From Heptranchias perlo (Eukaryota), in the NCBI RefSeq assembly GCF_035084215.1, contig NW_027139581.1, positions 4,278,001 through 4,342,000 on the forward strand: DNA of 64,000 bases. The letters run 5' to 3'. The position numbers were made by a program, and so were the translations under genes. Below, piece after piece: positions 483 through 36,200 of this stretch. Under the pieces are notes generated by a model. That model did no database searches. It saw only the letters and a list, made by a program, of their open reading frames with translations, and was not told the DNA's origin. Each line of letters starts with the position of its first letter. Positions within the stretch are counted from its first letter, which is position 1.

Positions 483-1381
483 TTATTTAATGAATTTAAC
501 AATTCCAGTAAAGGGATATTTCACCACATTCTTCAACTCCTCTCTGAATTTAGTCTGGGTCACGGCATAAATACACGTGTTGGTGCAGCAACTCAGGAGC
601 TGGAGCATAAATCCCAGTTCTTGTACAAATTTAGGGAGATACACAGGAATAAAGTCTAACCCATATGATCGGTACCATACAAAATACAACAGAAACACCG
701 CCCATAACAGGATAAAATTCCCCGATATAACAAATAGTAAAACGATGGATTTCCTTCTCTTCTCCATCTCTGGGTCACTGGGACTCTCCCCACTGCTGTG
801 GGCCCGGAGTCTCCTGCGGACTCGGCTCGACAATAAAATGTGTCTGACGGTTAAAGCATTGAGCAGCAGAATCAGAACAAATGGAACAAATGGGGTTAAA
901 ATATAATGAAGGAATTCAATTATTACCCAAAAGTGTACATCAATAACATTACCTGACATATAACAAAACCAGGGAGAATTACTAATCCAATATTCACCTC
1001 CACACATGAAGTACCAGAAAGTGTTCTTCACACAGAACAGCACACTCACTGTTCCCAGAACCACAGCCGCCGTTTTCTCAGTGCAAAATTTTGTTTTCAG
1101 CTTCTGGCAACAAATGGCCACAAATCGATCAAAGGTGAAAGTGATTGTGAACCAGACAGAACAGTCTGTGGCTGCGTAAAGCAGGACGGCGTGGATATTA
1201 CACACTCTGGAGCGCAACAAGAACCGAAACTGAGCCGAATAAAGAATAGGAATCTGCCTGAATATCAGATCAGTGATAACGACCAGTAGATCCGCCGCTG
1301 CCATGGACACCAGGTAACGGGTGACACATTTGGAGAGACCGCACCTTCCTCGAGACAGGATCACAATCGTCACTAAGTTCA
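483..1381 (-). CDS. GPR139/GPR142-like class A GPCR, copy 1, exon 2 (TM1 end to C-terminus)
   Basis: Seven-TM hydrophobic pattern with MAAADL (TM2), VCNIH (TM3 Cys), FDRF (DRY variant), ECL2 WFC, TPFVP (TM5) and NTCIY (NPxxY variant). Acceptor ttcccttccttacAG lies at 1383-1382. A phase-1 join with exon 1 gives GVP-V-NLVTIV and a 331-aa open product. Confidence 0.9.
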
Positions 1382-1584
1382 CTGTAAGGAAGGGAAAACA
1401 GGGAATTATACTTCAGACTGGGAGTAAAAGCAGCAGTTCGGTCGAATTCAGGGTGAAATGTTCAGTTATTATTGAATCCAGGGAAATAATCTAATTCCCT
1501 TACCTATGAGAGAACTTTCTGCTGTGGAGAGGGTTTATTTGTAAAGCACCGCCCTGGTGTAGCAGGAAACAAATCGCACTATAT

Positions 1585-2910
1585 GAATTAAGAGCAGGAA
1601 TGGACCATTCGGCCCCTCGAGCCTGCTCTGTCATTTAATAAGATCATGGCTGATCTGATTGTGACATCAACCATACTTTCCCGTCTACCTACTATAACAT
1701 TTGACTCCCTTGATAATCAGGAATCCATCTAACTCAGCCTTAAAAATATTCAATGAGCCTGCCTCCACCGCTCTGTGGGGAAGGGAGTTCTCCAGACTCA
1801 CCACCCCCCGAGAGAAAAAAAAATGTCATCTCCTTCTTAAATGGGAGACCCCTTGTTTTTAAACTGTGGACCCTGGTTCTAGTCTCTCCCACAAATGGAA
1901 ACATCCCCACAGCATCTACCCCTTCTAGTCCCCTCAGGATCTTATATATATTTCAATAAGGTCACCCCTCATTCTTTTAAACTCCAATGCATACATGCCC
2001 AACTTGTCCAGCCTTTCCTCATAAGATAACCCCCTCATCCCAGTAATCAATCTGAACCGCCTCCAAAGCAATTATGTCCTTTCTTAAATAAGGAGACCAA
2101 AACTGCACACAATATTCTAGATGTGGTCTCACCAATACTCTGTACAACTGTAGCAAAACATTTCCACTTTTATATTCCATTCCCCTTGAAATAAATGACA
2201 ACATTCCATTTGCCTTCCTAACCACTTGCTGTACCTGCAAACTAACTTTCTGTGATTCATGTACTAGGACACACAGATCCCTCTGTACCACAGAGTTCTG
2301 CAATTTTTCTCCCTTTAAATAATATACTGCTTTTCTATTCCTCCTGCCAAAGTGGACAAGTTCACATTTTCCCACATTATGCTCCATCTGCCAATTGTTT
2401 TGTCCACTCACTTAACCTATCTAGATCCCTTTGCAGACTCTTTAAATTCTCTTCACAACTTACTTTCCTACCTACCTTTGTGTCATCAGCAAATTTAGCA
2501 ACCATACATTCGGTCCCTTCATCCAAGTCATTGATATAGATTGTAAATAGTTGAGATCCAAGCACTGATCCCTGTGGCACTCCACTCGTTACATCTTGCC
2601 AAACAGAAAATGACCCAATTATGCCTCCTCTCTGTTTCCTGATAGATAACCATTCCTTTATCTATGCTGATATGTTAACACCTACACCACGAGCTCTTAT
2701 TTTGTGTAGTAGCCTTTGATGTGGCACCTTGTCAAAAGCCTTGTGGAAATCAAAGGACACCACATCCACAGGGTCTCCTTTATCCACGTTGCTTGTTACT
2801 TCCTCAAGAACTCCAATAAATTAGTCAAACACGATTTCCCTTCCACCAAACCGAGCTGACTCTGCCTGATTTCATTTAGATTTCCTAAGTGCACCGCTGT
2901 AACCACCAGT
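1585..2910 (-). mobile_element. CR1 LINE 3' fragment (RT and tail), decayed
   Basis: Translated fragments include PQGSVLG, KFADDTK and LVRPHLEYCVQFWSP, followed by a CR1-type 3' hairpin tail. Confidence 0.9.
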
Positions 2911-3134
2911 AGGCCCCAACTCCAAACCAGGGCCTGCACTGGGTCGGCAGTTGGAAGCTACAATGGCCTCAATGTGCTTGGGTTTGGAGGGAAATAACCC
3001 AGGATTCCGAGTCCTGATCACTGTCCTGTGACCCTGCTGTAAACTGCGCATGTCTGGACTTTAGATCAACATTTTGGACTGGCTTGTGATTCACTCCGAG
3101 GGGAAATTGTTCCATTTTTAAAATGGTCAACTGA

Positions 3135-4060
3135 AAACTGAAATGTCTTATCACGCCTTTCACGACCTCAAAACGTCCCAAAGCGCTTCACAGCCAAAGG
3201 GTTAGTTTTGAAGAGTGATTCAGTGAATAATTCATTTCACTGCAATTTTCAACATACAGCTATTTAAACAAACATCCCAAGGCACTTCACAGAGGTGTGA
3301 GGAAAATGGACGTCAAGCCAAAGAATGAGAGATTGGGAGCAGTGAGCGAAAGCTTTGGTGTGAAGGAGGGTCTTAAAGTGGAAGAGGGAGGTGGAGAGGA
3401 AGAAAGAATTAAGGAGAAAGTTTCAGAGTGTGAGATGTCCGCGGCTCAATTCACGGCCACCACTGGTGCAGGAAAGGGAGAGGAAGATGGACAAGAGACT
3501 GGAGACATGGCCGTCACTGGTGGAGTGAAGGGAGAGGAGGGTGGACAAGAGACTGGAGCCATGGCCGTCACTGGTGGAGTGAAGGGAGAGGAGGGTGGAC
3601 AAGAGACTGGAGACACGGCCGTCACTGATGGAGTGAAGGGAGAGGAGGGTGGACAAGAGACTGGAGACACGGCCGTCACTGATGGAGAGGAGGGAGAGGA
3701 GGGTGGACAAGAGACTGGAGATACGGCCGTCACTGATGGAGTGAAGGGAGAGGAGGGTGGACAAGAGACTGGAGACACGGCCGTCACTGATGGAGAGGAG
3801 GGTGGACCAGAGCCTGGAGTCACAGGAATGGAGAGTTTGGTTGATGGGTGGGCCGGAGTTCGTGCGGGATGGGATACAGGCAGCATAATTTTCGATGAAC
3901 TAAAGTTCACAGAAGATGGAGGATGGGAGGCCAGCCGGGGGAGTATTTTTATAATCGAGTCTAGAGGTGATAAATATTTGAATGAGGGTTTCATGTGTTG
4001 ATGTTGTGGAGGTGGCAGGTGATGTCACAGCGGTGGAGGTCGGCGGTCTTTGTGATGAGG
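3135..4060 (-). mobile_element. L2-type LINE/SINE 3' fragment containing a 54-bp VNTR
   Basis: Reverse-complement similarity to the L2 3' fragment at 56400-57075 and to 5045-5400. Confidence 0.6.
3470..3810. repeat. 54-bp tandem repeat, ~6 copies
   Basis: Unit gagactggagacacggccgtcactgatggagtgaagggagaggagggtggacaa. The gtggac motif recurs at 3541 and 3595. Confidence 0.9.
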
Positions 4061-4589
4061 AATAAAGGCGATGGGAAACTAGCGGTTATTGCAGGCTGGG
4101 GTCCGTTTTACAAATCCAATCACGGCAAATTGTGACATTTAATCGAACAAATCTGGTAAATTTATCAGAAAAATAGTCATGAAGAACTGCTGGGCGGTCT
4201 GTAAAACCCCGCTGCCTCCCACTCTACCAGCCGGACCCACATGTAACTCCATTCCCAATCCAGTTGTTGTATTTTAATGCCCAATGATGTTATCCAGCAA
4301 GGCAGCCGATTGTAAACAATCGCTACAAATTTCAGTGATAACAATCAATTCAGATGGATCTGCCATCAGCGACCTCGGGATCGTAAGACTATATCAATCT
4401 CAGCCCGTTCGGCCCTTCAAAGTTCTCTTCAATAACATCTGGGGGATAGTTCCCCAGTTCGAGATTTGTCCCAAATACGAATTAAGCACCAGCCTGACGT
4501 AATCGTGCTCACAGAGTCATGTCTATTAGTTAACATTGCAGATTCCTCCATCTCCACCCTGTCCCACCAGAACTGTGAAGATGTCCTTC

Positions 4590-5030
4590 CCAGGAAAGGC
4601 TGAACAGGCTGGGACTCTTTTCTCGAAAAATGGGAAGGATGAGGGGGTGACATGATTGAGATCTTTAAAATTATGAAGGGTTTGATAGGCTAGATGTTGA
4701 GAGGAAATTTCCATTTCAGGGACGTGGGGGGACTAAACTAGGGGTCATCAATATAAGATCGTCACCAATCAATCCAATGAGCAATTCAGGAGAAACTTCT
4801 TTACCCAGAGAGTGATTCGAATGTTGAACTCGCTACCACAAGGAACAGGTGAGGCGAATAGAATAGATACATTTAAGGGGATGCTCGCTCAGTACATGAT
4901 GGAGAAAGGAATTGAAGGATATTCTGATCGGGTGAGATGAAGTAGAATGGGAGGTGGCTCGTGTGGTGCAGAAACACCGTCATGGACCAGTTGGGCCGAA
5001 TAGCCTGTAAATTCTATGTAATTCTATGCA
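4590..5030 (+). mobile_element. CR1 LINE 3' end
   Basis: RLNRLGLFS- and RNFFTQRV-like coding remnants with an (attctatg)-like tail. A paralogous copy lies at ~33850-34230. Confidence 0.8.
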
Positions 5031-5044
5031 ACACGATTATAAAA

Positions 5045-7523: not shown

Positions 7524-7620
7524 CAGGAACACCAACAGTAGCGAGGAGCGGGTAATAAATCTTTTGTACATCATAAAGTGCCCACAGAATCCGAAGCTCA
7601 GTTGGAATATACCAGAACAT
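7524..7620 (-). CDS. GPR139-like GPCR copy 1, exon 1 (MFWYIPTELRILWALYDVQKIYYPLLATVGVP)
   Basis: ATG at 7620, 97 nt long, ending CCTG|GTAAGT (canonical donor). The phase matches exon 2 and a near-identical exon is present in copy 2. It is too short for the ORF track. Confidence 0.88.
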
Positions 7621-7647
7621 AATTTCATTATCTCTGAGATCCAAGGG

Positions 7648-7720
7648 TTACTGTTTGACCTGGAGGCAATGCTGCATCAAACAATCTGATGAGACACATT
7701 GAAAACAGTCTCTATTTATA
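7648..7720 (-). promoter_or_regulatory. TATA box (TATAAATA, 7720-7713) and 9-codon uORF (7677-7648) of GPCR copy 1
   Basis: The TATA box is ~100 nt upstream of the ATG. ATG CAG CAT TGC CTC CAG GTC AAA CAG TAA is in frame with the main ORF. Both are conserved in copy 2. Confidence 0.6.
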
Positions 7721-8094
7721 GCCTGAGGGAACTCTCCAGCGAGACAATTGAACGACACATTGACATTAATAACAGTCGATGAAGAAACAGGTTAGGTTAA
7801 TCCCTTAACTCCATCACTCTCTTGACAATTAAAGGAAAACAAGTATTTTACTGACATAAAGTGAAGTTACCAAAAATTCGGAATATTACTTTAAAAAAAA
7901 TAGTGCAGAAAGAAAATACGAATCCCGCAATCTTACAGTACTGATGTGAAGAGAGAGCAGCTTCACCGACAGAGTTCAGATTATTTCTGTGATACGAATT
8001 AAACCTGCAATATTATAATCTTTCCAATCAGTTTTCAGGGGTGGATTTAACAAAGGTGCAAAAGACAACGAGGATGGAAAGAATCAGGTCAAGT

Positions 8095-10050
8095 AATGAT
8101 CATTATGGATACATGGAGGCTGATAATACAATGGTCACGATGGATACATGGAGGCTGATAATGCAATGGTCACTATGGATACATGGGGGCTGATAATGCA
8201 ATGGTCACTATGGATACATGGGGGCTGATAATGCAATGGTCACTATGGATACATGGAGGCTGATAATGCAATGGTCACGATGGATACATGGGGGCTGATA
8301 ATGCAATGGTCAATATGGATACATGGGGGCTGATAATGCAATGGTCACGATGGATACATGGGGGCTGACAATTCAATGGTCAGTAAGGATACATGGGGGC
8401 TGATAATTCAATGGTCAGTAAGGATACACGGGGGCTGATAATAGAATGAGCAGTAGGCATACATGGGGGCTGAAATACAATGGTCAGTGAGGATGCATGG
8501 GGGCTGATAATACAATGGGCAGTAGGCATACATGGGGGCTGATAATACAATGGGCAGTAGGCATACATGGGGGCTGAAATACAATGGTCAGTAAGGATAC
8601 ATGGGGGCTGATAATTCAATGGTCAGTAAGAGTACATTGGGGCAGATAATACAATGAGCAGTAGGCATACATGGGGGCTGATAATACAATGGTCAGTAAG
8701 GATACATGGGGACTGATAATACAATGGTCAGTAAGGATACAATGGGTCTGATATTTCAATGGTCAGTAAGGATACATGGGGACTGATAATACAATGGTTA
8801 GTAAGGATACAGAGGTTGGGGGTGGGGAGCTGATATTACAACGGCCATTAAGGAAACATTGGGCTGATAATACAATCGTCAAAAAGGTAAAATGAGGCTG
8901 AAATTAGAAAGGTTTGTAAGGATACATGGGGCTGATAGTACAATGGTCAGCAAGGGTAAATGGGGCTGATAGTACAATTGTCAGTGAAGATACATGGGGC
9001 TGATAATACAATGGTTACTCGGGATACATGGGCGTCGTGAACAATGGTCATTAATTATAGTTGGGGCTGATAATTCAATGGTCAGTAAGGATACATGGAG
9101 TGGATAATACAATGGTCATTAAGGATATATTTGGCTGATAATACAATGGACAGTAAGGATAAATCGGGGCGGATGACACAGTGATCAGTAAGGATACTGG
9201 GGACTGATAATACAATGGTCAGTAAGCAGACGTGGGGGCTAATAATACAATGGTCAGTAAGGATACATGTGGCTGATAATGCAGTGGTCAGGAAGGATAT
9301 ATGGGGCTGATAATACGTTGGTCAGTAAGGATACATGGGGGCTGATAAGGATACATGGGGCTGATAATACAGTGGTCAGTAAGGATACATGGGGCTAATA
9401 ATAGAGTGGTCAGTAAAGATACGTTGGGACTGATAATACAATGGTCAGTAAGGATCGATGGGGCTAATAATACAGTGGTCAGTACGGAAACATTGTGACG
9501 GATAATACAATGGTCAGTAAGGATACATGGACGCTGATAATACAATGGTCAGTAAGGATACATGGACGCTGATAATACAATGGTCAGTAAGGATACATGG
9601 GGGCTGATAATACAATGGTCAGCAAGGATACATGGGGGCTGACAATGCAGTGGTCAGTAAGGATACATTGGGAATGATAATACAATGGTCAGGAAGGATT
9701 CCTGGTGTCTGATAATACAGTGCTCGGTAAGGATCCATTTGGCTGATGAAACAATGGTCAGTAAGGATGCATTGGAATGTTCATACAATGATCAGTAAGT
9801 ATATGTGGTGCTGATAACAGAATGGTCAGTCAAGATACATGGGGTTGATAATATAATGGTCATTAAGGGTCCATGGGGCTGATAATACAATGGTCAGTAA
9901 TGATTGAAGGGACTGATAATACAATGGTCAGTAAGGTTACAGCAGACTAACTACATTGGTCAGTAAGGATTGAGGGGGCTGCTAACAGAATGGTCAGTAA
10001 GGATTGAGGGGCTGATAGTTCCCCAATTGTGAGCAAGCATACATGGGGCT
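8095..10050. repeat. 35-bp satellite array upstream of GPCR copy 1
   Basis: Consensus atggtcagtaaggatacatgggggctgataataca, with period 35 (tggatacatgg at 8106 and 8141). Confidence 0.95.
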
Positions 10051-10059
10051 ACTTAATTG

Positions 10060-15585: not shown

Positions 15586-15589
15586 TCTT

Positions 15590-19708: not shown

Positions 19709-20155
19709 GACTTAACCCTTAAGTTAGCTTAACAACAACTGCAATGTCAAGAGAAAAAAAAGGAAAGAAAAACTACTTACCACTCCCTTTAAGGAGTTTA
19801 CTCCTTTAAATTGTTCTCAATTTAGAGAATGTTAACTACACTAGGGACCTTGATTCACTAAAAAATAAACGCTACTTCCTATACGACCTGCAGACCTTCC
19901 CTTTTACTTCAGTTTCTGTCGATAAGTCGAAATACTCACCTGAACCTACTCACCAATCAGGTGCCTCCCCTGTGTCGCGTCCCGATCTGATTCCTGACGT
20001 CACTTCGAACTCGGTCGCAGCTCCGCTCGGCTCGGCTCCTCTCAGCGCTCTGAAATCCCGCCTTTTATCGAACGCTCCCTCCGCTCGGCTCGGCTCCTCT
20101 CAGCGCTCTGAAATCCCGCCTTTTATCGGACGCTCCCTCCGCTCGGCTCGGCTCC

Positions 20156-21895
20156 CTGGGGACTTGGACTGTTTTAATTGGAAGGGACTCCTGCAAAATA
20201 TGTAATAGGGAAGTGGCCGCAATACGGGGAGTATGCGGGTCACATTGGAGACAAGGGAACGCCTGTTGGGGCGGTCCTTTGGAAAATTGCGCAAACAAAG
20301 ATGTCAGGTGGAAATTTAAAAAGATACAAAAATCTGTAGCGATCGGATGTTTACTTGAGGAATGGATAGAATGCCGACAGCAGGCTAGGAGAGAGAAAGA
20401 AAAGACTCGGAAAATCCAAGACGAATTAGGGGAAGAGAATAAAAAACTCCGTGAGGAGATCGCCCGCCTTAGTGAGAAGGTAACTGATCGACAGGGACAG
20501 AGAAGTGCAGATTTGATGCACATGAACCAATATCAGTTACAGTGCGAAAAATTGACTAATGAAAAGAATATGAGAGAGGGAGAAGTCCAAGCAGCTAAAG
20601 CTGAGGTGGAGAGATGGAAACAACAATGTGGTGATTTAAAAACTGCTATGAATGTGATTCACAGAGCAGCTCAGGAGAAGAGGAGTGGTACTGGCGATCA
20701 CACAACGTGTCAGAAAGTGATAGGGAGGCTGCAAGATCAGCTAGCCACACAGAGGGGCATATTGTGTGCTTTTGCACCCGGGAGAGGTGAAGAAAGTGGT
20801 TTCGGGGATGTAGATTGGGATGATTTAGCAGACAAGGCGGATAGATACAGCAGCGGTAATAGGGAACCTCCACTGGGGGACCCACCGCCAGCTTATGCTC
20901 CAGAGCAGAAAAAACCGTCTGCCCCAATGGCCCCCCTGGTAACTACAAGAGCACAGATGGGGGAAGATGGTCAGGATATGACATATTCCACCCCACTTGG
21001 GGTACAGGAACTGAGGGTTATTGCGAAAGATATTGGAACGTGTGCGCCCGGGGATGATCCCAGGGAGTTGTTCCTAGCAGTCAGGCAACAGAGAGCGATA
21101 CACGGCTTAGACGATGCTGAGGAAAGGAAATTAATCCCAATGTGCCTTCACCCACATATACACTCCGCCCTACCGGAGGAACAAAAACTTGGTGGAGGCA
21201 CGAATGAAGCCTTAAAGGACCAGATATTATCTGTCATGGGCGATAACAGAGGGGATCCAGTGGAGGCGCTGATGAGATGCTATCAAAGGAAAGGTGAACA
21301 CACCACTGTATTTTCGACTCGCATTTGGGCGGTATTTCAGGGGGTCTATAGTACAGACTTAGACAGGGATAATTTACAGCGGGAGGTTCGGAACCGATGG
21401 CTGAGAACACTAGTGTCGCATGGCACTGAGGAGTCGAGGAAGGCACTAGATCAGTTTGATCCCGCTGATGACACACATACGGAACCCTGGATAATTAGGA
21501 AGATGGTTAGAGTGTGGGAAAGGGAAATACCAAAACGATCCAAGGCATCCGGGGACAGAGCAATGCCTGTTAAAGATCAGGCGATAACCTGGAGAAATGA
21601 AGGGAGGGGACCTACTCAGGGGGAACCCCCTCCTGCTTATCAGATAGTGGGAAGAGGTAGAGGCAGAGGCAGACGAAACTTCTCGGGAAAGGGGAGAACT
21701 CAAGGCGAGGTGTCCAAATGCTATAACTGTGGCCAAGAGGGACACTTCGCAAGGGACTGCCCGAACCCGAGACGAGAGAATGCAGGTCGGGGAAGAAATC
21801 AGAGCCGACCCGTGGAAGGGCAGAATAGACCGAGTCCTCAGAGTGATACGATAGAAATATCACCGAGTTCCGGGTTGTACCCCGAACTGCAATGA
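20156..21895 (+). CDS. gag: Provirus gag (coiled coil, capsid-like region, CCHC zinc knuckle); true start probably ATG 15710, separated by the CR1
   Basis: CYNCGQEGHFARDC knuckle, RG-rich NC, PPPAY twice, PSAP and LYPEL. The frame stays open upstream of 20213 up to the CR1 junction. Confidence 0.85.
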   Translation: MGTWTVLIGRDSCKICNREVAAIRGVCGSHWRQGNACWGGPLENCANKDVRWKFKKIQKSVAIGCLLEEWIECRQQARREKEKTRKIQDELGEENKKLREEIARLSEKVTDRQGQRSADLMHMNQYQLQCEKLTNEKNMREGEVQAAKAEVERWKQQCGDLKTAMNVIHRAAQEKRSGTGDHTTCQKVIGRLQDQLATQRGILCAFAPGRGEESGFGDVDWDDLADKADRYSSGNREPPLGDPPPAYAPEQKKPSAPMAPLVTTRAQMGEDGQDMTYSTPLGVQELRVIAKDIGTCAPGDDPRELFLAVRQQRAIHGLDDAEERKLIPMCLHPHIHSALPEEQKLGGGTNEALKDQILSVMGDNRGDPVEALMRCYQRKGEHTTVFSTRIWAVFQGVYSTDLDRDNLQREVRNRWLRTLVSHGTEESRKALDQFDPADDTHTEPWIIRKMVRVWEREIPKRSKASGDRAMPVKDQAITWRNEGRGPTQGEPPPAYQIVGRGRGRGRRNFSGKGRTQGEVSKCYNCGQEGHFARDCPNPRRENAGRGRNQSRPVEGQNRPSPQSDTIEISPSSGLYPELQ

Positions 21896-24800
21896 CGATC
21901 TCAGGCCTCTCCGTTATGGGTGTGTGACGCGCGGTTGGATGACACGGGGAGACCCCTAGTGAATGGTAGGGTCGGAGGCCGCCATCTTACAATCCTTTGG
22001 GACACAGAGGGATCTCGAACCACCGTTAACACCACTCAGATCAATGACATAGATTGGAAAATTCAAAATAAAATTATTCTCAGTGGATTCACAGGGCATT
22101 CACAAGTGGGATATGTGAGTGTACCGTTGGAAGTCGGTGTGGGAGACATAGTGATAGAGCATTCAGTGGTCCTTATTGCATTACCTAGAGGACAAGAACA
22201 TATATCAGGGAGTGACTATATGGCCAAAGCGGGAATCTGCTTCGACCCTGTTAATTGTATAATTTGGCAAATGCCTTTGGGCATGGGCAGTATAAATCAC
22301 ACACTCGTCCCGGTGGGGGAATATCAGGATAGGATATGCACGATCGGGGAAATGTGGATAGAACCAGGAGAAATGAGTAACGATCGTGAAGTACAACAAA
22401 TTATTGCACAAAACTCAATAGTATTTGCCCGACATAAACATGATTGTGGGAAAATGACCGGGAGTGTGTGTATACAAGGTCCAGACCCCAAACCACAGAA
22501 TCAGTATGGTTTCCCAAAACAAGCAGAAGAAGAGATAGAGAAGGTGATACAGAGTCTGCTGCAGCAAGGGATATTAAGACCAATAGCTTCTACTAATAAC
22601 GCACCTATTTGGCTGGTGAGGAAACCCGACGGTAGCTGGCGACTCACGATTGACGACAGAGAATTAAATAAAGCCACCCCGCTAACAGCCCCTACTGTAG
22701 CAACCAGACCAGAGACAGTAGTTCGACAAAATGAGGGTGCGCAGTGTTCTACGGTTTTGGACATAAGTAACGGTTTTTGGTCTATTCCACTGGAGAAAGA
22801 ATGTCAATATAAATTTGCATTTACTTTCCAAGGACAGCAATATACATGGACCGCCCTGCCGCAGGGGTTTCACAATTCCCCGTCCATATTTCACCAACGC
22901 CTGAGGGAAGGGTTAAAAGGATTCTTAAGGCCTGAATGTTTAATGCAGTATGTAGACGACTTACTCCTACAAACTGAAACCAAGAAGGAACATTATCAAC
23001 TGCTAAGTGAATTACTGCAGTTGCTACATGACTTGGGATTAAAGATTAACCCTAAAAAAGCGCAGACCATGAAACAAAAAGTTACTTACTTGGGAATGAT
23101 TCTGACGCCGGGACTAAGGGACATTGACAAGCGAAGGATCGAGACGGTTGGCAGACTCCTTGTTCCGCGGGATGTAAAAGGGTTAAGGTCCTTCTTGGGG
23201 TTGGTGGGATATCGCAGGGACCATAATGATGGATTCGCCACAAAGGCGGCCCCGTTGATGGAATTATTCAAAAAGTATGTGGCCTGGGAGTGGAAAACAG
23301 AACACTCCGAGGCCATGACTGATCAAAAGCAAGCACCAGCTGCCGTGCCTGCTCTAAAAAGCCCAAATCCAACTGAGCCGTTTTCATTGGAGATGGCTAC
23401 CACAGACACCACCCTCTCGGCAGTTCTGTTACAGGAGACACATGGGAAATTACGACCAGTATCGTACGCTTCACGTATGCTCTCACCAGTAGAGCAGGGT
23501 TACACGGTGTGCCAAAGACACTTGCTAGCTGTCTTTTGGGCAGTGCAGCATTTTACCTATATAGTGGGACCAAACCCACTTACAATATTAACAGAACACA
23601 CCTCAGTACAGCTACTGTTAGATGGAAGGATTAAGGATGGTTCAGTTAGCCAAAATAGAATCGCTAGATGGACATTGTTGCTGCAAGGGAGAAATATAAC
23701 CGTAAAGGGGGTGAAAACCACCACTGTGTTAGCAGACAACTTAGTTTATCAGGGAGAGAAACATGAGTGTCAATTGATGATAGCAAATGACCCCAAGGGC
23801 CCATTTGTATCAAAACAAAAGGGAGGGGGTAAGACGGGGCCTGAAAGCAGAAAGACAAAGGAAACAGGAAAGGAAGAACCCTATTTTAAATGTTTTGTGG
23901 ATGGCTCTTCATCAGTACAGGATGGGGAAAGGAGAACTGGCTGTGGGATATACATGGAGGATGACCACGGACGGGAAAGATTTAGTGCGGCTCTGAAATT
24001 ACCTAACACTATGAGTGCGCAGGCAGCAGAACTAGCAGCCGTCGCATATGTGGTTGGTCACCCGGAATATTTTCCGCCCAGATCAGTCATATATTCTGAT
24101 AGCATGTATGTTTGTAATAGCCTCACAGAACATTTGCCCCTATGGGAAGCGAGAGGATTTGTCTCAGCGGATGGAAGACCCCTTCCGGCAGCCCCGCTAT
24201 TACGGTACATCTTTGAAGAAGCACAGGGGAAAGGATATGGGGTCACAAAAGTGAAAGCTCATTCAGAACTATCTCCCGAAGGGAACAGGAAAGCTGATGA
24301 ACTAGCTAAACGAGGTGCTGTAAGTGGACAGGAATGGCAGCCACCGATTGGGGAAATCGGAGGCCAGAAAGAGAAGCAGGTCAAAATAATGGATTTAACG
24401 GAGGAGCAAAAGAAAGACGGAGAATTAAAAAAACTAATAGAAGGAGCAGAATCAGACACATACAAAAGGCACAAGGGGGTCGATATTCAAGACGGAGTGG
24501 TTTTGTGTGAAGGAAAATTTGTGGTGCCAGAGGGGGGACGAAACCAAATAATCCACTGATACCTTGACTTATGGGGACATAAAGGGACGGAGAGCACCCT
24601 AGATAGGATGAAGGAGGTGTGCTGGTGGCCCGGAATGACAGGTGACGTGGAACACAATGTCAAGAATTGTTTGATCTGTGCACAACACAACCCCGATAGA
24701 AATATTAAGAAAGGGGCCCTCCGACATACTAGACCAGTTGAAGGGCCTTGGACTAATTTACAGATAAACTGTGTACGACCCCTGCCCCCCACTCCAGGAG

Positions 24801-25855
24801 GATACAAGTACATTCTAGTAATAGTGGATACCTTCACCAAATGAGTGGAAGCTTTTCCGACCAGAACAAACACAGTCAAAGTTACTGCGCAAATTCTATT
24901 CGAAAAGGTGTTTACCCGTTGGGGTTTACCCCGAAGCATGGAATCGGATCAGGGAACACATTTTACAGCCCAAGTAATGCAAGATGTTGTGACCCTTTTT
25001 GGGGTCAGACAAAGATTTCACATACCCTATAGACCACAGTCTAGTGGAATTGTGGAAAGAATGAATCGGACATTGAAAAACATGACAGCCATAATGGTGC
25101 AGCAGCACAAGACAACCTGGCAAGTGGTTCTGCCCTTTGTGCTGATGATAGTCAGGAATACCGTGGCTTCATCAACAGGCTACACTCCTTATAAACTCAT
25201 GAGAGGAAGGGGCATGAGTGGAATGGAGGTGTTGGTAGGTTTGGATTTGTCTGAACCCGAGGTAGATCACATTATATCAGAAAAATGGGTACAACAGCTA
25301 GTGGAAGCAGTAAAAGAAGCAAATTATGTAGCCGCTCACCGACAGGGAAAGAAGAAACAGCAAAGCAAGACTTATTTAGATGCAAAAGCCAGCCCGACAG
25401 AGTTGAGCCCCGGACAGAGAGTAATGATTAGAATACAACAGCCCACCTCATTCTTGAGTCCAAAATTTGCCGGTCCCTATGAGATAGTGGACAAAGCTAG
25501 CCCATCTGTATACAGGATATTAACGGCACCAGATAAGAGTGGCTGGTACCACATTAATCAGCTAAAGTTGGTAGGAGAAAAACAAGATAATCACCATTGG
25601 CATGTGCTGCTCGATGCTAACGATGTTCCGAATTCTGAAGGTCAGGGAGATCAAGAACAGGACCAGCTACAGGTCCAAGAGGAGGTGATCGAAAACAAAT
25701 TTGAAACTGTCCGTTCACATACAGAGGCGAATCCAGGAAAAAAAAAAGAAAGAAAAATAAAACAAAAAGGGGGAATAAGTGGGTTAGAAGAAACGGACGG
25801 TTCGAATCTGAAACAAATTGGGAACAGGATATGGACGGTCTGGCTCAGTATATAG
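21896..25855 (+). pseudogene. pol: Provirus pro-pol (protease, RT, tether, RNase H, integrase), in frame with gag, two premature stops
   Basis: LWDT(E)GS protease, LPQGF and YVDDLL RT, a degenerate RH/tether (RPVSYASR), an RNase HI fold (FVDGSS, SAQAAEL, YSDS, KVKAH, GNRKAD) and IN with H..CLIC, VDTF, SDQG, VERMN and GPY. Stops at 24557-24559 and 24842-24844, with no frameshift. Confidence 0.93.
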
Positions 25856-25938
25856 AGAGACTGGACTTATGATAGGACTTAAAAGAAACTGTAAATAAGA
25901 GCAGAAATTACACTTGTTTATTACAGGTCCAGCCGAGA

Positions 25939-28308
25939 ATGAAGGGGATGATGCATTTTGTTGCTATCGGATTGAACATCATCAGAACTGCGGTTGAACC
26001 TGCCTCGGAGCCGTCACGACGAATGAACGTGCCTGAAGCAGTGTCGACGGCGGAGGGATATCCCGAGACTAGGGACAACTTTGCTCTGCAGAATAAGACA
26101 GTCCGAACCAACAAAGGGAAACGAGAGGATTTAAATTTGTATTGTACGGGAGTGGATGGGTTAGCGTGCGCGGGAAAGACTTTGGGTATACCGGAGGGAG
26201 CGGCAGTACAGTTTTCATGCAACACAGTTCTAGAGGTGACATTGTTGGTAATCCCAGAGGGAAAAATCATTAATTAATTTGCGGGTCCATTTATGGAGCG
26301 ACCATCAGGGAGCACACCGATGTAAATATTGACTGGGGTAGTGACTTATACCGGAAATATTACGTTGGGGCGGTGTTTCATATTCCCCGGCACGGAAGCA
26401 ATTTGACCTACCCGTTAAAAAGAGTTCATAACGTGGGCAAGTATCATGAGGGTACTTGGATATCTTTGAGCAGCCCACCATCTCATGCTTTTGTAATGGA
26501 CGGTGCTGAGAAAGGGGTAGATTTGTCAAAGTGTCACCAAGGAGGGAATCACTGGGCCTGTCCAGAAGAGATAACGAGACAGAAACTTATTAATTGCGGG
26601 TTCAGTACTTATGAAAATTGTTCATTGTCCATTTTGCCGGTTAACAACCAGTCCTTTTTACAACACGCCCTTGTGGGACAAACGTATTACATAGCCACAG
26701 CGGCTATGAACTATAAAAAAGTATGGAAACAGTGCCCTCTGGAAGGACACAATGTGGCCATTAACAATGTGACCTCAGACCTGGTTGTCGGTGGACAAGT
26801 TCTGCCTAAGCCAATAATGAGGTTGGTAATAAACGAAAACCTCACAGTCCAACGGACCGATATAGACCAAGATCTGCGGAAATATGTTCCTACCGAACTA
26901 CCACCCATTCCGCACCTGACGACAGATTGGACGCAAATAGCAGAGGAAGCCAATGAGATAATTCATCAATGGACGAAACACACTAAAATAATTAAAACTC
27001 ATGCTGATAAAGCAGATGAACTGCTACAGGACCCCAGGTTCTGTGATAAGTTTTGGAATTAGAATCATAGAATCATAGAATCATAGAAGTTTACAACTTC
27101 GGCCCAACATGTCCGAAGGGCCTGTTTCCTTCGGACATGTTGGGCCGAAGGAAACAGGCCCTTCGGCCCAACATGTCCATGTCGCCCAGTTCATACCACT
27201 AAGCTAGTCCCAATTGCCTGCACTTGGCCCATATCCCTCTATACCCATCTTACCCATGTAACTGTCCAAATGCTTTTTAAAAGACAAAATTGTACCCGCC
27301 TCTACTACTGCCTCTGGCAGCTCGTTCCAGACACTCACCACCCTTTGAGTGAAAAAATTGCCCCTCTGGACCCTTTTTTTATCTCTCCCCTCTCACCTTA
27401 AATCTATGCCCCCTCGTTAAAGACTCCCCTACCTTTGCGAAACGATTTTGACTATCTACCTTATCTATGCCCCTCATTATTTTATAGACTTCTATAAGAT
27501 CACCCCTAAGTCTCCTACTCTCCAGGGAAAAAAGTCTCAGTCTATCCAACCTCTCCCTATAAGTCAAACCATCAAGTCCCGGTAGCATCCTAGTAAATCT
27601 TTTCTGCACTCTTTCTAGTTTAATAATATCCTTTCTATAATAGGGTGACCAGAACTGTACACAGTATTCCAAGTGTGGCCTTACTAATGTCTTGTACAAC
27701 TTCAACAAGACATCCCAACTCCTGTATTCAATGTTCTGACCAATGAAACCAAGCATGTCGAATACCTTCTTCACCACCCTATCCACCTGTGACTCCACTT
27801 TCAAGGAGCTATGAACCTGTACTCCTAGATGTCTTTGTTCTATAACTCTCCCCAACGCCCTACCATTAACGGAGTAGGTCCTGGCCCGATTCGATCTACC
27901 AAAATGCATCACCTCACATTTATCTAAATTAAACTCCATCTGCAATTCATCGGCCCACTGGCCCAATTGATCAAGATCCCGTTGCAATCCTATATAACCT
28001 TCTTCACTGTCCACAATGCCACCAATCTTGGTGTCATCTGAAAACTTACGAACCATGCCTCCTAAATTCTCATCCAAATCATTAATATAAATGACAAATA
28101 ACAGCGGACCCAGCACCGATCTTGGGGATCTAATGTTCAAATACATCCATGGATCAGGATGTTATCACATGCTGCTGTGGTTGTGATTGTATGTGCATTA
28201 ATACTTGTCATATTCAATGTATATCAGCTCAGAAGGTGGAAACATGAAATTTTGCAACAATTGAGTGTTTGTGCAATAATGAAACAGAAAAAGCGATTAT
28301 CAATATAA
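25939..28308 (+). pseudogene. env: Provirus env-like glycoprotein (~430 aa reconstructed), frameshift near 26273 and CR1 insertion 27061-28121
   Basis: A splice acceptor ttgtttattacAG (25926) precedes ATG 25939. The ectodomain is Cys-rich with N-glycosylation sequons. After removing the CR1, DKFWN joins WGSNVQIHPWIRMLSHAAVVVIVCALILVIFNVYQLRRWK (TM and basic tail), with the stop at 28306-28308. Confidence 0.8.
27061..28121 (-). mobile_element. 5'-truncated young CR1 inserted in env
   Basis: Near-identical to 15726-16735 and has an (ATTCTATG)n tail. Confidence 0.95.
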
Positions 28309-28488: not shown

Positions 28489-28501
28489 AAAAGGGGGGAG
28501 A
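28489..28501 (+). promoter_or_regulatory. Polypurine tract
   Basis: aaaaggggggaga immediately before the 3' LTR. Confidence 0.9.
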
Positions 28502-30350: not shown

Positions 30351-30860
30351 TATCACCACTTTGTACCCTATGCATCTCCACTTTAAACCCTGTACATCTC
30401 CACTTTATACCCTGTACATCACGACTTTAATCCCTGTACATCACCACTTTAAACCCTGTACATCACCACTTTAAACCCTGTACATCACCACTTGATACCT
30501 AGTACATCACCACTTTCAACCCTGTACATCACCACTTTCAACCCTGTACATCACCACTTTATACCCTGTACATCTCCACTTTATACCCTGTACATCACCA
30601 CTTTATACCCTGTACATCACCACTTTATAACTAGTACATCACCACTTTAAACCCTGTACATCACCACTTTAAACCCTGTACATCACCACTTTAAACCTTG
30701 TACATCACCACTTTAAACCCTGTACATCTCCACTTTATACCCGGTACATCACCACTTTATACCCTGTACATCACCACTTTATATCCTGTACATCTCCACC
30801 TTATACCCTGTACATCTCCACCTTATACCCGGTACATTACCACTGTATTCCCTGTATATC
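30350..30860. repeat. 22-bp minisatellite
   Basis: Unit accctgtacatcaccacttta(t/a), with period 22 (30541 and 30563). Confidence 0.92.
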
Positions 30861-30894
30861 AACGCATTGTTCCAATAGTTTTCAATTGAGTTGA

Positions 30895-32290
30895 GATAAA
30901 GCAGGAAATCATAAACACGTTCGTCTGTCATCAATTGTGGGGAAGTTGGTAGAATCTGTTATTTGGGAAAGAGTGACTGAGAATCTGGAGAAATTTGAGC
31001 TGATCAGAGAAAACAGCATGTATTTGTAAAGGTTAAGTCATGTCTAATGAAACCCGAGTTAAAATTTTTGAAGAGGTAATTAATGTGGTCGGCAATGGCG
31101 TGTCTGTGGATGTTATTTATATTGACTTCCAGAAGACATTCGATAAGGTTCCACATTATAGTCTGTTAATATAATCGAGAATGCATGGGATTGGAGGCAA
31201 CCCTTTGGCTTGGACAGGGAATTGGTTTGGAGTTACGAGACAGGGAGTAGGTTTAATGAGTCTGTACTCTAATCAGCAGGATGTGACTAGTGGTGTCCCC
31301 AGTGCTCTGCACAGGGACCGCAGCTTTTCACTGTATTGATAAATGACTTGGATGAAGGAATATGGAGCCTTATATCTTCGTTCACTGACGACATCAAGTT
31401 AGGTAGCACAATAAATATTGTAGATGGGAGCAGATAGTTGCAAAGGGACATTGATAGATTAAGTGAATGGGCAAAACTGTGGCAGATGGAGTTCAAAGTG
31501 GGAAAGTGTGAGGTCATCCGCTTTGGTCCTAAGAAAGATAGATCAGGATATTTTCTAAATGGCGAGAAGCTGGGAACTGTGGAAGTGCCGCGAGATTTAG
31601 GGGTCCAAGTACAGAAATCATTAAAAGCTGAAGCACAGGTCCAAAAATTAATTGAAAATACGAATGGAACGTTGGGCCTGATCACAAAAGGCTGGAATAC
31701 AAAAGGGTGGAAGTTATGTTCCAGTTGTACAGAGCTCTGGTCAGACCCCAGCTGGAGACTGCGTTCAGTTCTGGGCACCGCATCTCAGGAAGGATATTTG
31801 GCCTCGGAGGGGGTGCAGCACAGATTCACCAGAATGTTATCGGGGTTAAACGGTTAAATGATGAGGACAGGTTGCACAGACTAGGCTTGTATTCTCTTGA
31901 ATATAGAAGATTAAGGGGTGATCGAATTGATGTTTAAGATGATTAAAGGATTTGATAGGGTAGATAGAGGTAAACTATTTCTTCTGGTGGGCTAGTCCAT
32001 GACAAGGGAGCATAATCTTAAAATGAGAGGTTCAGGTGTGATGTCAGGAAGCATTTTTTCATACAAAGGGAGTGGAAATCTGGAATCCTCTCCCCCAAAA
32101 GCTGTTGATGCCGGGGGTCAATAGAAAATTACAAAACTGAGATTGATAGATTTTTTGTTGGGCGAGGGTATTAAGGGTTGCAAAACCATGGGGGTAAATG
32201 GAGTTAAGATACAGATCAGCCATGATCTAATTGAACGGAGGAATAGGCTCGAGGGGCTGAATGGCCTCGTCCTGTTCCTCTGTTCCAAAG
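30895..32290 (+). mobile_element. CR1 LINE fragment, old and decayed
   Basis: DFQK.FDKVPH, FTDD and WQMEF..GKCEV remnants with a tail. Confidence 0.85.
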
Positions 32291-32633
32291 GAGAAGTGAA
32301 ATGATTCTTAAAGGATAATTCTCTGGTCCTCACACCATGGGCTGCATGTGTGCCCCACCCGCCCGCTTTCGGCAAACAAATGAAACAAGAGCCAGGCGGA
32401 CGGGAGCTTCATACACCCGCCCCAGGCCGCACCAGAGGACTTAGCGGGGCGAAAGACCAGGAGGAATCAAGCGGGACTGATCTCCGCGGACTTCCCCACC
32501 TCTCCCGTCCCTGTTAGTCACTAAATCAGGGCGGTGAAAGATGAAAACCGGCCTCACTGTGTTTGTATCACAGAGATGAGGGGATTGGGCAGAACACCAG
32601 ACCAACACCTTGTGATGATGGAAAGTCTTCTCA

Positions 32634-33532
32634 TTATTTAATGAATTTAACAATTCCAGTCAAGGGATATTTCACCACATTCTTCAACTCCTCTCTGAAT
32701 TTAGTCTGGGTCACGGCATAAATACACGTGTTGGTGCAGCAACTCAGGAGCTGGAGCATAAATCCCAGTTCTTTGACAATTGCAGGTAGATATACATGAA
32801 TAAAGTCTAACAGCTCCAATCGATTCCATACAAAATACAACAGAAACACCGCCCACAACAGGATGAAATTCCCCGATATAACGAACAGTAAAATGATGGA
32901 TTTCCTTCTCTTCTCCATCTCTGGGTCACTGGGACTCTCCCCACTGCTGTGAGCCTGGAGTCTCCTGCGGACTCTGCTCGACAATAAAATGTGTCTGACG
33001 GTTAAAACATTGAGCAGCAGAATCAGAACAAATGGAACAAATGGGGTTACAATATAATGAAGGAATTCAATTACTGCCCACACCTGTGAAGAACGAACAT
33101 AATGTGATACGTAACAAAACCAGGGATCATTACTAATCCAATATTCACCTCCAAGCATAAAGTACCAGAAAGTGTTCTTCACACAGAACAGCACACTCAC
33201 GGTTCCCAGAACCACAGCCGCCGTTTTCTCGGTGCAATATTTTGTTTTCAGCTTCTGGCAACAAATGGCCACAAATCGATCAAAGGTGAATGTGACTGTG
33301 AACCAGACAGAACAGTCTGTGACTGCGTGAAGCAGGACGGCGTGGATATTACACACTTTAAATGCCCACATGAACTCAAACTGAGTCGAATAAAGAATAG
33401 GAATTTGCCTGAATATCAGATCAGTGATAATGACCAGTAGATCGGCCGCTGCCATGGACACCAGGTAACGAGTGACACATTTGGAGAGACCGCACCTTCC
33501 TCCAGACAGGACCACAATCGTCACTAAGTTCA
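32634..33532 (-). CDS. GPR139/GPR142-like GPCR, copy 2, exon 2
   Basis: Same 899-nt exon and motifs as copy 1. Acceptor ttcctTACAG at 33534-33533. The frame is open. Confidence 0.9.
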
Positions 33533-33589
33533 CTGTAAGGAAGAGAAAAACAGGGAATTGCACATCAGTCTGAGAGTAAAAGCAGCAGC

Positions 33590-35320
33590 CTGGTCGCTCA
33601 TCCCTGGGAACATTCTACTAAATCTCTTCTGCACCCTCTCCAAGGCCTTGAAATCCTTCCGAAAGTGTGGTGCCCTTAATTGGAGACAATTGGACAGCTG
33701 AGGCCTGACCAGTGATTTATAACCAGTGGTTAGTCCACTCTTGGAGTATTGTGCACAGTTGTGATCTCCATTAATAACAATGGTTTAAAGGCACTGGAGT
33801 GAGTGCAAAACAGATTTACAATGATGATACCAGAACTGAGAGGATATACTTATCAGGAGAGGCTGAACAGGCTGGGACTCTTTTCTCTCCTTTTTTTCAC
33901 TTGTGGTGGAGTGGGGGGACAAAACTCGTGGTCATAAATATAAGATAATGACCACCAAATCCAATAATCAGTTCAGGGGAGACTGAGTTACCCAGGGACT
34001 GGTTAGAATGTAGAGCTCGCTACCACAAGGAATATTTGAGGCGAATTGAATAGATGCATTTAAGCGGAAGTTAACTAAGTACAAGAGGGAGAAAGGAATG
34101 GAAGAATATGCTGATAGGGTGAGATGAAGTAGAATGGGAGGAGGCTCGTGTGGAGCATAAACACCGGCATGGACCAGTTGGGCCGAATGGCCTGTTTGTG
34201 AGCTGTAAATTCTATGTAATTCTATGTAACCCGAGTTTAGGAATTTTTAAATTGAGGCTTCGCTCGACCTTGAGCCAATGTAGGTCAGCAAGCAGAGGGG
34301 TGATGGGTGAACGGGACTAGGTGCGAGTTTGGATGCGGGCAGCAGAGTTTTGGATGAGCTCAAGTTTATGGAGGGTGGTGGGAAGACCGGCGAGAAGAGC
34401 ATTGGAATAGTCGAGTCCGGAGGTAACAAAACCGCGGATCAGGATTTCAGCAGAAGATGGGCTGAGGCTGGGGCAGAGACGATGATGTTAGGGAGGTGGA
34501 AGTCGGCGAGCTTGGTGATGGAGAGGACATGGGGACAGAAGCTCAGCTCAGGGTCAAATAGAACGCCTACTGGTCTGGTTCAGCCTCAGACTGTGACCAG
34601 GGAGGGGGATGGAATCAGTTGCGAATGAACGGAATTTGTGATAGGGGCCGAAGACAATGGCTTCAGTCTTTCTAATGTTTAAATGGACGAAATTTCTGCT
34701 CATCCAGGACTGGACGTTGGATTCGCAGTGAAGGGGTCGAGAGAGGCGGTGGTGAGAAACAGCTGGGTGTCAGTTCCATGTGGAATCTGACTTTGTGTTT
34801 TCGGATGATGTCGCTGAGGGGAAGCTTCAATTTGTGAAATGGGAGGAGGTCAATGATTGTTCCTTGTGGGACACCAGAGATAACGGTGCGGGGGCGGGAA
34901 GATGAATCATTACAGGAGATTCCCTCGCGAATCCTGAATTGATAGGAATGGAACCAGGCGAGGGCAGTCCCACCCAGTTGGACAACGGACGAGAGGCGTT
35001 GGAGGTGGCTGGTGCGGACACCCGTGTCAAAGGCTGCAGACAGGCCAAGAAGGAAGAGGAGGGATAGTTTTCCACGGTCAGTCACATGGGATTTCATTTG
35101 TGACTTTGATTCGGGCCGTCTCAGTGCTGTGGCAGCGGTGGAAACCTGATTGGAGAGGTTGCTAATGCATTTGCAGGAAAGATGGGCACAGATTTTGGAA
35201 ACGACAACACGTTCAAGGAGAGGAAAGGGAGGTTGGAGATGGGGGCGGTAATTTACAATGACCGAGGGGTCATGGATTTTTTTTGAGGATGGGGTGATGA
35301 CGGCAGATTTGAAGAGGAGA
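33590..35320. mobile_element. Intronic CR1 fragments (33590-34230) and L2 fragment (34240-35320, minus)
   Basis: Paralogous to the copy-1 intronic repeats at 4590-6040, so they predate the duplication. Confidence 0.8.
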
Positions 35321-36103
35321 CGAGAGAGAACCGTGAATAAAAGGGTTAACTTTCCCCCTTTGGACATTAAATTTGGACATTGTAAGTTTAAACTGCAAAG
35401 GCAGCAATGTGCAGAAACTTTGAGAAGCTTCGGTTTTCAACAACAACTGATCTGAATGAAAGCAACGATGAGTGGAAGCTTCGAAAAGCTTCGAACTGGC
35501 TTTTGGTTCTCAAAACAACTAAGAACCTTAACAGATAACAACTTGGAAAAAACAATGCTGAAACAGTTAGAAACCCCTGGGAAAGACAATTCAAGTTACT
35601 TGTTCACAGGTAACAGGAGTTTTAAGGTCTGCTGGTTATAGTTAATGACACTGATCTGTGGAAACCAGCGCTAACAGATAGGTCACCAATACACTCTGAA
35701 ATATTGGACAATATCCAATAATGATTCAGCTCCAGGCAGCTGTCTTACTCTATGAACACATATTTCTGATCCGATACTAGGGTTCAGTGCAGAGAGCAGA
35801 CGGCAAACTGTTCAATAAAGAGAATCGTCCACCAACATTCCTTGTGTACGAGACTCAAATAACAGGCAAATCCTAAAAAATGACCATCAGTTGAAGAAAG
35901 TCATAAAAAGAACAGACTGTTCATTGGACTGGGACCAATGAATCGGCAACTGTTCACATGTTACATGAAGGAAACAAGGTGCATTAACAGACACTGAACA
36001 AGAGGATTACACTGAATACAATTAATAACCGGGTCTAAAGAACAAGGACAGTAAATACAGTTAAATATGGTTTACAGAATTAATTGCTGAAATAATGACT
36101 TAC

Positions 36104-36200
36104 CAGGAACACCAACAGCAGCGAGGAGCGGATAGTAAATCTTTTGTACATCAAAAATTGCCCACAGAATCCGAAGCTCAGTTGGAATATACCAGAACAT
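36104..36200 (-). CDS. GPR139-like GPCR copy 2, exon 1 (MFWYIPTELRILWAIFDVQKIYYPLLAAVGVP)
   Basis: ATG at 36200, 97 nt long, CCTG|GTAAGT donor. Confidence 0.88.

What the first reader, a model, noticed from the sequence alone, without database searches (positions are those of the whole stretch)
483..36200. Tandem GPR139-like GPCR paralogues that differ mainly in the extracellular loops: a candidate diversifying receptor repertoire next to an IgM cluster
Seen: a hand alignment of the two 331-aa proteins gives about 42 differences. About 27 fall in three short extracellular stretches: ECL1 AQFRFLLRSR vs TQFEFMWAFK, ECL2 ..C..S..MSGNVIDVHFWVI vs ..L..D..VSHYVRSSQVWAV, and ECL3 YRSYGLDFIPVYLPKFVQ vs NRLELLDFIHVYLPAIVK. 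These changes are radical (charge or size), whereas TM and intracellular changes are few and mostly conservative. ICL3, TM7, helix 8 and the proximal 3' UTR (~270-480 vs ~32420-32630) are almost identical. Known: class A GPCR ligand selectivity depends on the ECLs and the upper TM pocket, and mammalian GPR139/GPR142 are single-copy amino-acid/peptide sensors. Inference: this is a lineage-expanded family under diversifying selection or patchwise gene conversion, with constant signalling and a variable recognition surface. It could be an uncharacterised chemosensory or immune pattern-recognition system. It lies ~21 kb from an IgM gene on the same strand.
Basis: partly seen in the sequence, partly recalled or inferred. 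Interest (0 to 1): 0.85.

Follow-up and report, generated by a model that had tools for sequence, protein, structure and literature searches.

The report
Thousands-strong hidden shark receptor family
These two genes belong to a family of about 3,000 related cell-surface receptor genes in this shark genome whose outer binding surface is being diversified by selection, likely forming an undescribed system for sensing outside molecules (smell or taste, or else immune surveillance) in animals thought to have very few such receptors.

Summary
The pair is a small window on something far larger. The contig carries at least 97 close paralogues, and a family motif matches 3,044 places genome-wide (control 0; some are haplotig duplicates or broken genes). 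Relatives occur in many copies in sharks, skates and rays, but as one gene per species in amphibians. They are not GPR139 orthologues: true GPR139 is a separate single gene, and two of its five pocket residues are lost. Across 82 intact paralogues, about 14% of codons evolve at dN/dS near 3.6, and 19 of 22 such sites sit on the loops and helix tops. The signal survives segment trees, multi-base changes and neutral gene-conversion simulations. The pocket floor is invariant and loops are shuffled between copies. Three small samples from other arrays show no clear positive selection. IgM, IgNAR and IgW clusters lie inside such arrays, probably co-duplicated. Expression and ligand are unknown: chemosensory about 0.42, immune about 0.33. 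Ten literature searches found no description.

The parts
483..1381 (-). GPCR copy 1, exon 2 (second half of TM1 to stop); most divergent member of the array
   Evidence: (Pfam 7tm_1, 66.6 bits, cut-off 30.5)
7524..7620 (-). GPCR copy 1, exon 1 (32 codons plus 1 base, GTAAG donor)
7712..7723 (-). TATA-like element about 100 bases upstream of the copy 1 start codon (function untested)
   Evidence: similar element upstream in the 12 exon-1 loci printed
32634..33532 (-). GPCR copy 2, exon 2
   Evidence: 7tm_1, 65.6 bits
36104..36200 (-). GPCR copy 2, exon 1
36292..36301 (-). TATA-like element upstream of copy 2 (function untested)
207..482 (-). proximal 3' UTR of copy 1, 97% identical to 32358-32633; with TM7 and helix 8 a candidate conversion tract
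57978..58107 (-). IgM transmembrane exon (approximate ends)
60050..60440 (-). IgM CH4 plus secretory tail; CH3, CH2, CH1, J and V follow beyond the window end (about 68-78.8 kb in window numbering)

Best explanation
The two genes are members of a very large, elasmobranch-expanded class A GPCR family that grows by segmental duplication, swaps loop segments between copies and is under positive selection on its outer rim while its pocket floor and signalling face stay fixed, and it likely serves as a chemosensory repertoire for outside peptides or amino-acid-like molecules. Shown: family size, tandem arrays, separate origin from GPR139, selection pattern in the C1414 array, invariant pocket floor (D70, H96, T104, D105, H191, W259, R270, E287, F290, Q293 in 82 of 82), mosaic loops. 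Inferred: each receptor would bind a shared ligand core at the floor and tell ligands apart with ECL1-3 and the tops of TM5-7 (message and address, as in peptide receptors), and all would couple to the same G protein. Untested: expression, cell type, ligand. IgH clusters are likely passengers in the same duplicating segments. I put about 0.85 on the evolutionary part and about 0.42 on the whole statement with the chemosensory role.
For: Size: 97 paralogues at 85-100% on C1414, median spacing 63 kb; 1,344 and 3,044 exact motif matches, reversed controls 0; 47 of 60 motif-picked copies on C2, C23 and C18 passed an automatic intact-frame test; 94 of 98 close copies have no stop in exon 2. Range: multi-copy in sharks, skates and rays; one cluster per species in 20 amphibian rows and a sturgeon; tree puts the family sister to the amphibian gene, 100/99. 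Selection in 82 unique intact copies: M8 vs M8a LRT 240 on one tree, 179 on three segment trees, M2a vs M1a 150 with multi-base changes, omega 3.6 at 14% of codons; loops alone with their own synonymous rate LRT 50, and 52 without five outlier copies, against at most 25.5 in 15 neutral conversion simulations of similar loop divergence; tree-free loop pN/pS 1.49 reached in 1 of 70 such simulations. 19 of 22 selected sites in the 67 loop and rim codons. Exchange: PHI p = 0.001, loop distances nearly uncorrelated among distant pairs, mixed two-state loop haplotypes on C2, synonymous rate five-fold lower in TM7-helix 8 and two-fold higher in loops. Role: nearest solved relative by sequence and fold is GPR139, an aromatic amino-acid sensor (PMC5430874, passages); Atlas neighbours include Srw-type invertebrate clusters; known shark olfactory families are tiny (6-13 OR, 3-5 TAAR, 2-4 ORA, 8-43 V2R; PMC10116579 section 5). 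From my own knowledge: other animal GPCR families of this size are chemosensory.
Against: No expression evidence was obtained. Loop pN/pS over all pairs is only borderline (1.49, bootstrap 0.94-2.48) and near 1 among the youngest duplicates (0.98). Other arrays did not show clear positive selection: loop ratios 0.94, 0.79, 0.70, loop LRT 4.6, 0.0 and 7.5 in 15, 18 and 9 copies. Eight more divergent neutral simulations reached LRT 47, so recombination alone can give much of such a signal; the simulations did not reproduce the two-fold loop/rest synonymous contrast. Non-loop codons also give LRT 29. A GENECONV-like test found only 2 of 3,016 pairs significant and none on silent sites; PHI on third positions p = 0.067. 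Loop windows were drawn after seeing the variability table. All three IgH isotypes sit inside arrays, which fits an immune role as well. Catshark olfactory neurons all carry microvillous markers and many V2Rs are expressed there (PMC10116579 abstract), so no extra family is demanded by those data. Counts are inflated by apparent duplicate contigs.
Confidence: 0.42

Rival explanations
1. Same evolutionary mechanism, but the repertoire is immune: leukocytes or barrier cells would use it to detect microbial or parasite peptides, working like mammalian MRGPRs or formyl peptide receptors.
For: IgM (11 clusters on C1414), IgNAR (family genes within about 50 kb on both sides) and IgW (alternating with family genes on C1269) are all embedded in arrays. 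Strong omega with loop shuffling and deeper synonymous divergence beside selected sites resembles MHC-type arms races (own knowledge). Sharks are reported to lack MAS1 and its relatives (PMC8455134, passage), leaving that role open.
Against: 220 kb around two other IgM clusters on C240 hold no family gene. The 11 IgM copies are 98-100% identical in CH4 and all 22 flanking receptor genes share their strand, against 32 of 96 neighbour pairs overall: one captured cassette, not independent events. Most arrays seen (C2, C3, C18, C23, C38) showed no IgH hit. Known immune GPCR expansions are tens of genes, not thousands (own knowledge).
Confidence: 0.33
2. Mostly non-adaptive amplification: the genes ride in duplication-prone regions, the loops are merely relaxed and escape conversion, and the apparent omega above 1 is a recombination artefact.
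For: Six groups of DNA-identical copies; loop synonymous rate doubled; divergent neutral simulations reach LRT 47; no clear signal in three other arrays; 13 of 60 sampled copies failed the intact test.
Against: Purifying selection on the core (omega 0.44 outside loops, 0.17-0.34 in TM2, 3, 4, 6); invariant pocket floor across 94 proteins of several shark species; calibrated nulls fall short on both statistics; loop pN of 0.15 exceeds 3' UTR divergence of 0.058; subfamilies are shared between shark orders and with batoids.
Confidence: 0.12
3. Receptors for a diversifying set of the animal's own peptides, for example in reproduction or conspecific signalling.
For: The wider clade includes sex peptide, myoinhibitory peptide and proctolin receptors (PMC12208981, passage); the fold neighbours are peptide receptors.
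Against: No matching expanded ligand family was looked for or seen; thousands of receptors would be unprecedented for an endocrine system (own knowledge).
Confidence: 0.1

Closest known systems
GPR139 / GPR142 (vertebrate aromatic amino-acid sensing orphans)
   Same: Best solved-structure match by sequence (E 2.4e-6) and by fold (7VUG, 24% identity); H5.42, W6.48 and an aromatic 3.33 kept; NCBI names most members 'probable GPR139'.
   Different: True GPR139 is a separate single gene at C25:31.07 Mb. R6.51 and N7.38 of the GPR139 site (PMC5430874) are F/I and F in the array; a TM3-ECL2 cysteine pair absent from GPR139 is invariant here. Thousands of copies instead of one.
GPR210-type orphans (three GPR139/142-related sets in coelacanth, gar and fishes; PMC6504862 section 47)
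   Same: Same wider clade: single-copy shark genes on C30 and C5 group with coelacanth and teleost proteins next to the family; the amphibian single-copy gene is the family's sister.
   Different: That study reports no expansion and its text does not mention sharks. I could not match its Ensembl ids to my proteins.
Vertebrate chemoreceptor repertoires (OR, TAAR, V1R/ORA, V2R) and nematode Srw-type expansions
   Same: Works like them in genome terms: large tandem arrays, birth and death, pseudogenes, variable ligand face, short N-terminus.
   Different: Not homologous at family level: only Pfam 7tm_1 matched. Diversity sits on loops and rim with a fixed pocket floor, whereas OR diversity lies in TM3-6 (own knowledge). 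Sensory expression not shown.
MRGPR and formyl peptide receptor families of mammals
   Same: Expanded class A peptide sensors with positively selected extracellular parts (own knowledge).
   Different: None among the 12 sequence matches in the PDB; different clade; about a hundred times more genes here.

Membership tests
Class A (rhodopsin-like) GPCR | 7tm_1 domain above the curated cut-off and seven helices plus helix 8 | tested here: met
   66 bits vs cut-off 30.5; AlphaFold model of paralogue P0003, pLDDT 84, seven helices and helix 8
Class A (rhodopsin-like) GPCR | Activation motifs D2.50, DRY, P5.50, W6.48, NPxxY and the TM3-ECL2 disulfide | tested here: met
   D63, DRF, P199, W259, NTCIY, C93 and C172 are invariant in 82 copies; P6.50 and P7.50 are missing. 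Generic numbers are my assignment from these anchors.
GPR139 orthologue | Groups with GPR139 and is the genome's GPR139 | tested here: not met
   Separate single GPR139 gene; the family falls in another clade, although GPR139 is a long branch
GPR139 orthologue | Binding-site residues F3.33, H5.43, W6.48, R6.51, N7.38 | tested here: not met
   Three kept or conservative (Y101, H191, W259), two lost (F262, F290)
GPR139 orthologue | Activation by L-Trp or L-Phe | not testable with these tools
   needs a cell assay
OR / TAAR / V1R / V2R / T2R chemoreceptor families | Family-specific sequence signature | tested here: not met
   Pfam scan gave only PF00001 at E up to 0.001; tree and structure neighbours are peptide-type receptors
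Chemoreceptor repertoire (functional sense) | Large, birth-and-death, tandem family with a diversified ligand face | tested here: met
Chemoreceptor repertoire (functional sense) | Sparse, one-receptor-per-cell expression in a sensory epithelium | not testable with these tools
   No run on record as RNA was listed, and none with tissue
Immune pattern-recognition GPCR (MRGPR/FPR-like, functional sense) | Leukocyte or barrier expression and activation by non-self ligands | not testable with these tools
   only genomic co-location with IgH could be tested
IgM heavy-chain cluster (neighbour gene) | V, D/J, four constant exons, secretory tail, TM exon | tested here: met
   distinct from the IgNAR-type (C1392) and IgW-type (C1269) loci, whose isotype names rest on my recall of shark Ig sequences plus the exon layout

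The most novel reading that the evidence does not exclude
Sharks, skates and rays possess a fifth vertebrate chemoreceptor (or innate peptide-sensing) family of one to three thousand class A GPCRs, born from a single GPR139-related orphan that bony vertebrates kept as one gene or lost, diversified by positive selection and loop shuffling around a fixed pocket floor, and interleaved with all three antibody heavy-chain isotypes; it would rival the largest mammalian odorant-receptor repertoires.
Probability: 0.45. Interest if true: 0.93.

Novelty: new variant of a known kind. Interest (0 to 1): 0.8.

Why it matters
Published work describes cartilaginous fishes as poor in GPCRs (PMC8455134, passage) and in olfactory receptors, at most about 65 genes in four families (PMC10116579, section 5), which sits oddly with their large olfactory organs. 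A family of thousands of intact, rapidly diversifying class A receptors, hidden under one automatic database name, overturns the first statement on genomic evidence alone and makes the second question directly testable with existing olfactory, skin and spleen RNA data. If it is immune instead, it would be a germline peptide-sensing repertoire of a size unknown among GPCRs, physically tied to the clustered shark antibody genes.

Tried and rejected
Expression: no RNA holder listed; contigs of four coded runs from related organisms laid on copy 2 covered exon 2 but mostly intron repeats, showed no listed joint at the exon 1-exon 2 junction, and may be DNA: no evidence either way. Catshark tissue tables: supplement too large to read; it may bear on expression. 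Two shark genome papers (white shark 2019, Hara 2018; recalled) were not held. My first idea that the Ig gene was IgNAR was wrong. A donor for the odd ECL2 of copy 1 was sought with up to 3 mismatches: only the copy and its twin matched, so no conversion from another subfamily is shown. Intron ends could not serve as a neutral yardstick (mostly not alignable). GENECONV-like scan nearly blank. Row L157 was dropped from the tree because my script picked the wrong frame. First simulations were too divergent and were recalibrated; both are reported. Earlier scan findings: nothing listed. No complex prediction was run, as there is no candidate partner.
Full report
Observation. The window is G000:C1414:4278001-4342000. 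Two genes on the minus strand each have a 97-base exon 1 and an 899-base exon 2 and encode 331-aa class A GPCRs. They differ at 39 residues in exon 2 and 3 in exon 1; 27 fall in residues 77-92, 158-186 and 265-286. TM7, helix 8 and about 215 bases of 3' UTR are almost identical. The neighbour is a complete IgM cluster on the same strand with its TM exon about 21.7 kb from copy 2. The pair is an extreme one (top 3.5% of 3,321 pair distances), and alone it does not show dN/dS above 1 (1.30, 0.74-3.03).

Scale. A protein search of the own genome had 4,514 first-look candidates; of 131 scored, 97 lie on C1414 at 85-100% identity, one on C1740, and 33 at 74-77% on other contigs. A tight TM3 motif matches 1,344 places and a looser one 3,044, the reversed controls none. 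Arrays sit near the ends of C2 and C3 and on C18, C23, C38, C42, C45, C49 and many small contigs. Of 98 close copies, 94 have no stop in exon 2, 86 are distinct in DNA and 82 are distinct and intact; this set favours intact genes because only the best candidates were scored. Of 60 copies picked by motif on C2, C23 and C18, 47 passed an automatic intact-frame test; they were the first listed, not a random sample. Some small contigs mirror larger ones with identical scores, so haplotig duplication inflates the count, by my guess at most two-fold. The closest database proteins are named for the sharpnose sevengill shark.

Relationships. Homologue searches returned 2,418 and 1,887 clusters at 90% identity; the 120 listed in each come from sharks, skates and rays or are unnamed. 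A profile search of 50% clusters and name look-ups for 20 of its 150 rows reached salamander, coelacanth, teleost and amphioxus proteins. The salamander protein has one cluster per species in 20 amphibian rows and one in sturgeon. In a 36-row tree the family plus the amphibian gene form a clade (100/99) beside a single-copy gene shared by this shark, coelacanth and teleosts; true GPR139, found once at C25, lies elsewhere on a long branch. Of the five GPR139 site residues described in PMC5430874 (passages), R6.51 and N7.38 are lost here, and a TM3-ECL2 cysteine pair is present. So 'GPR139' is a best-hit label. No chimaera, lungfish or lamprey protein appeared in the listed rows; I did not test those genomes.

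Selection. With my own codon-model code on 82 copies and 299 codons: omega 0.44 outside the loops and 1.37 inside; M8 vs M8a LRT 240; 179 with separate trees for three segments; M2a vs M1a 150 with double and triple base changes allowed, omega 3.6 at 14% of codons, 22 sites at posterior 0.95 or more, 19 of them in the 67 loop and rim codons. The synonymous rate is itself doubled in the loops and five-fold lower in TM7-helix 8, so I retested the loops alone with their own rate: LRT 50, or 52 without five outliers; per loop on local trees 9.3, 33.8 and 9.8; non-loop codons 29. Neutral simulations with duplication and gene conversion gave at most 25.5 in 15 runs of similar loop divergence, and tree-free loop pN/pS reached the observed 1.49 in 1 of 70; eight more divergent runs reached 47. 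Against: the tree-free ratio has a bootstrap range of 0.94-2.48, and is 0.98 among the youngest duplicates; samples from C2, C23 and C18 show loop pN two to five times the rest but ratios of 0.94, 0.79 and 0.70 and LRT 4.6, 0.0 and 7.5 after dropping two divergent rows each from C2 and C18. Selection is thus well supported in this array and open elsewhere.

Anatomy. An AlphaFold model of paralogue P0003 (94-row alignment, pLDDT 84) fixes the helix ends; its best fold match is GPR139, then peptide receptors. By my generic numbering, positions lining the pocket floor are invariant in 82 of 82 copies and nearly so in 94 proteins from several shark species, whereas 6.55, 6.58, 6.62, 7.32 and many ECL sites vary. 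I did not measure distances on the model. This fits a shared ligand core with variable flanks (inference).

Exchange. PHI p = 0.001 (third positions 0.067); loop distances are nearly uncorrelated among distant pairs; 39, 41 and 46 loop variants occur in 58 combinations. On C2, two-state ECL1, ECL2 and ECL3 haplotypes occur in six mixtures among 15 copies. A GENECONV-like scan found only 2 of 3,016 pairs significant, so tracts are short or old.

Immunoglobulin link. C1414 holds 11 IgM clusters 98-100% identical in CH4; all 22 flanking receptor genes share their strand, against 32 of 96 neighbour pairs overall, which points to one cassette copied by segmental duplication. Family genes also lie within about 50 kb on both sides of an IgNAR-type cluster on C1392 and alternate with IgW-type clusters on C1269, but 220 kb around two IgM clusters on C240 hold none. 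Co-location is real, may stem from few ancestral events, and does not decide function; odorant-receptor clusters also flank mammalian T-cell receptor and MHC loci (own knowledge).

Literature. Ten full-text searches listed no description of this expansion. Term look-ups in PMC11979771, PMC10620051, PMC7677710, PMC10751288, PMC12208981 and PMC6504862 (passages only) did not mention it; PMC8455134 speaks of a paucity of GPCRs in cartilaginous fishes (passage); PMC10116579 (abstract, passages and section 5) counts small olfactory families. The library lacks most subscription papers, and supplements were not seen, so a prior mention cannot be excluded; the genes are visible in NCBI annotation under the GPR139 name.

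Verdict. Function is inferred: chemosensory 0.42, immune 0.33, non-adaptive 0.12, own peptides 0.10. Interest 0.8.

Noticed in passing
window 19,800-27,100 (+): Retroelement or endogenous-retrovirus-like region between the two receptor genes: gag with zinc knuckle, RT, two RNase H domains, integrase pieces and an env-like ORF without Pfam match, interrupted by stops and frame changes; a quick blastn found no LTR pair.
   Followed up: partly
L112 region, about window-numbering 78,400 (-), just beyond the window: The IgM V segment ends in a non-canonical recombination-signal heptamer (CACGGGG) before a 23-base spacer and a normal nonamer; whether this cluster rearranges is open.
   Followed up: no
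G000 C1847, C1488, C1370, C38, C555, C1349: Some subfamilies match from query residue 10-13 in one frame, so they appear to lack the intron in TM1; many of these carry a stop.
   Followed up: no
L153 (C30:14.08 Mb) and L154 (C5:114.75 Mb): Two single-copy GPR139-related orphans that keep R6.51, with coelacanth and teleost orthologues.
   Followed up: partly
window 8,100-10,050 and 36,650-40,650; 41,900-46,200: A shared minisatellite lies upstream of exon 1 of both receptor copies; unrelated 24-base and 30-base tandem arrays follow at 42-46 kb.
   Followed up: no
window 50009-50091 (-): tRNA-Leu(TAA) gene called by ARAGORN.
   Followed up: no
G000 C1841 and C14:59.9 Mb: Runs of Ig C1-type exons that resemble none of the three heavy-chain types seen here; identity not worked out.
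   Followed up: no
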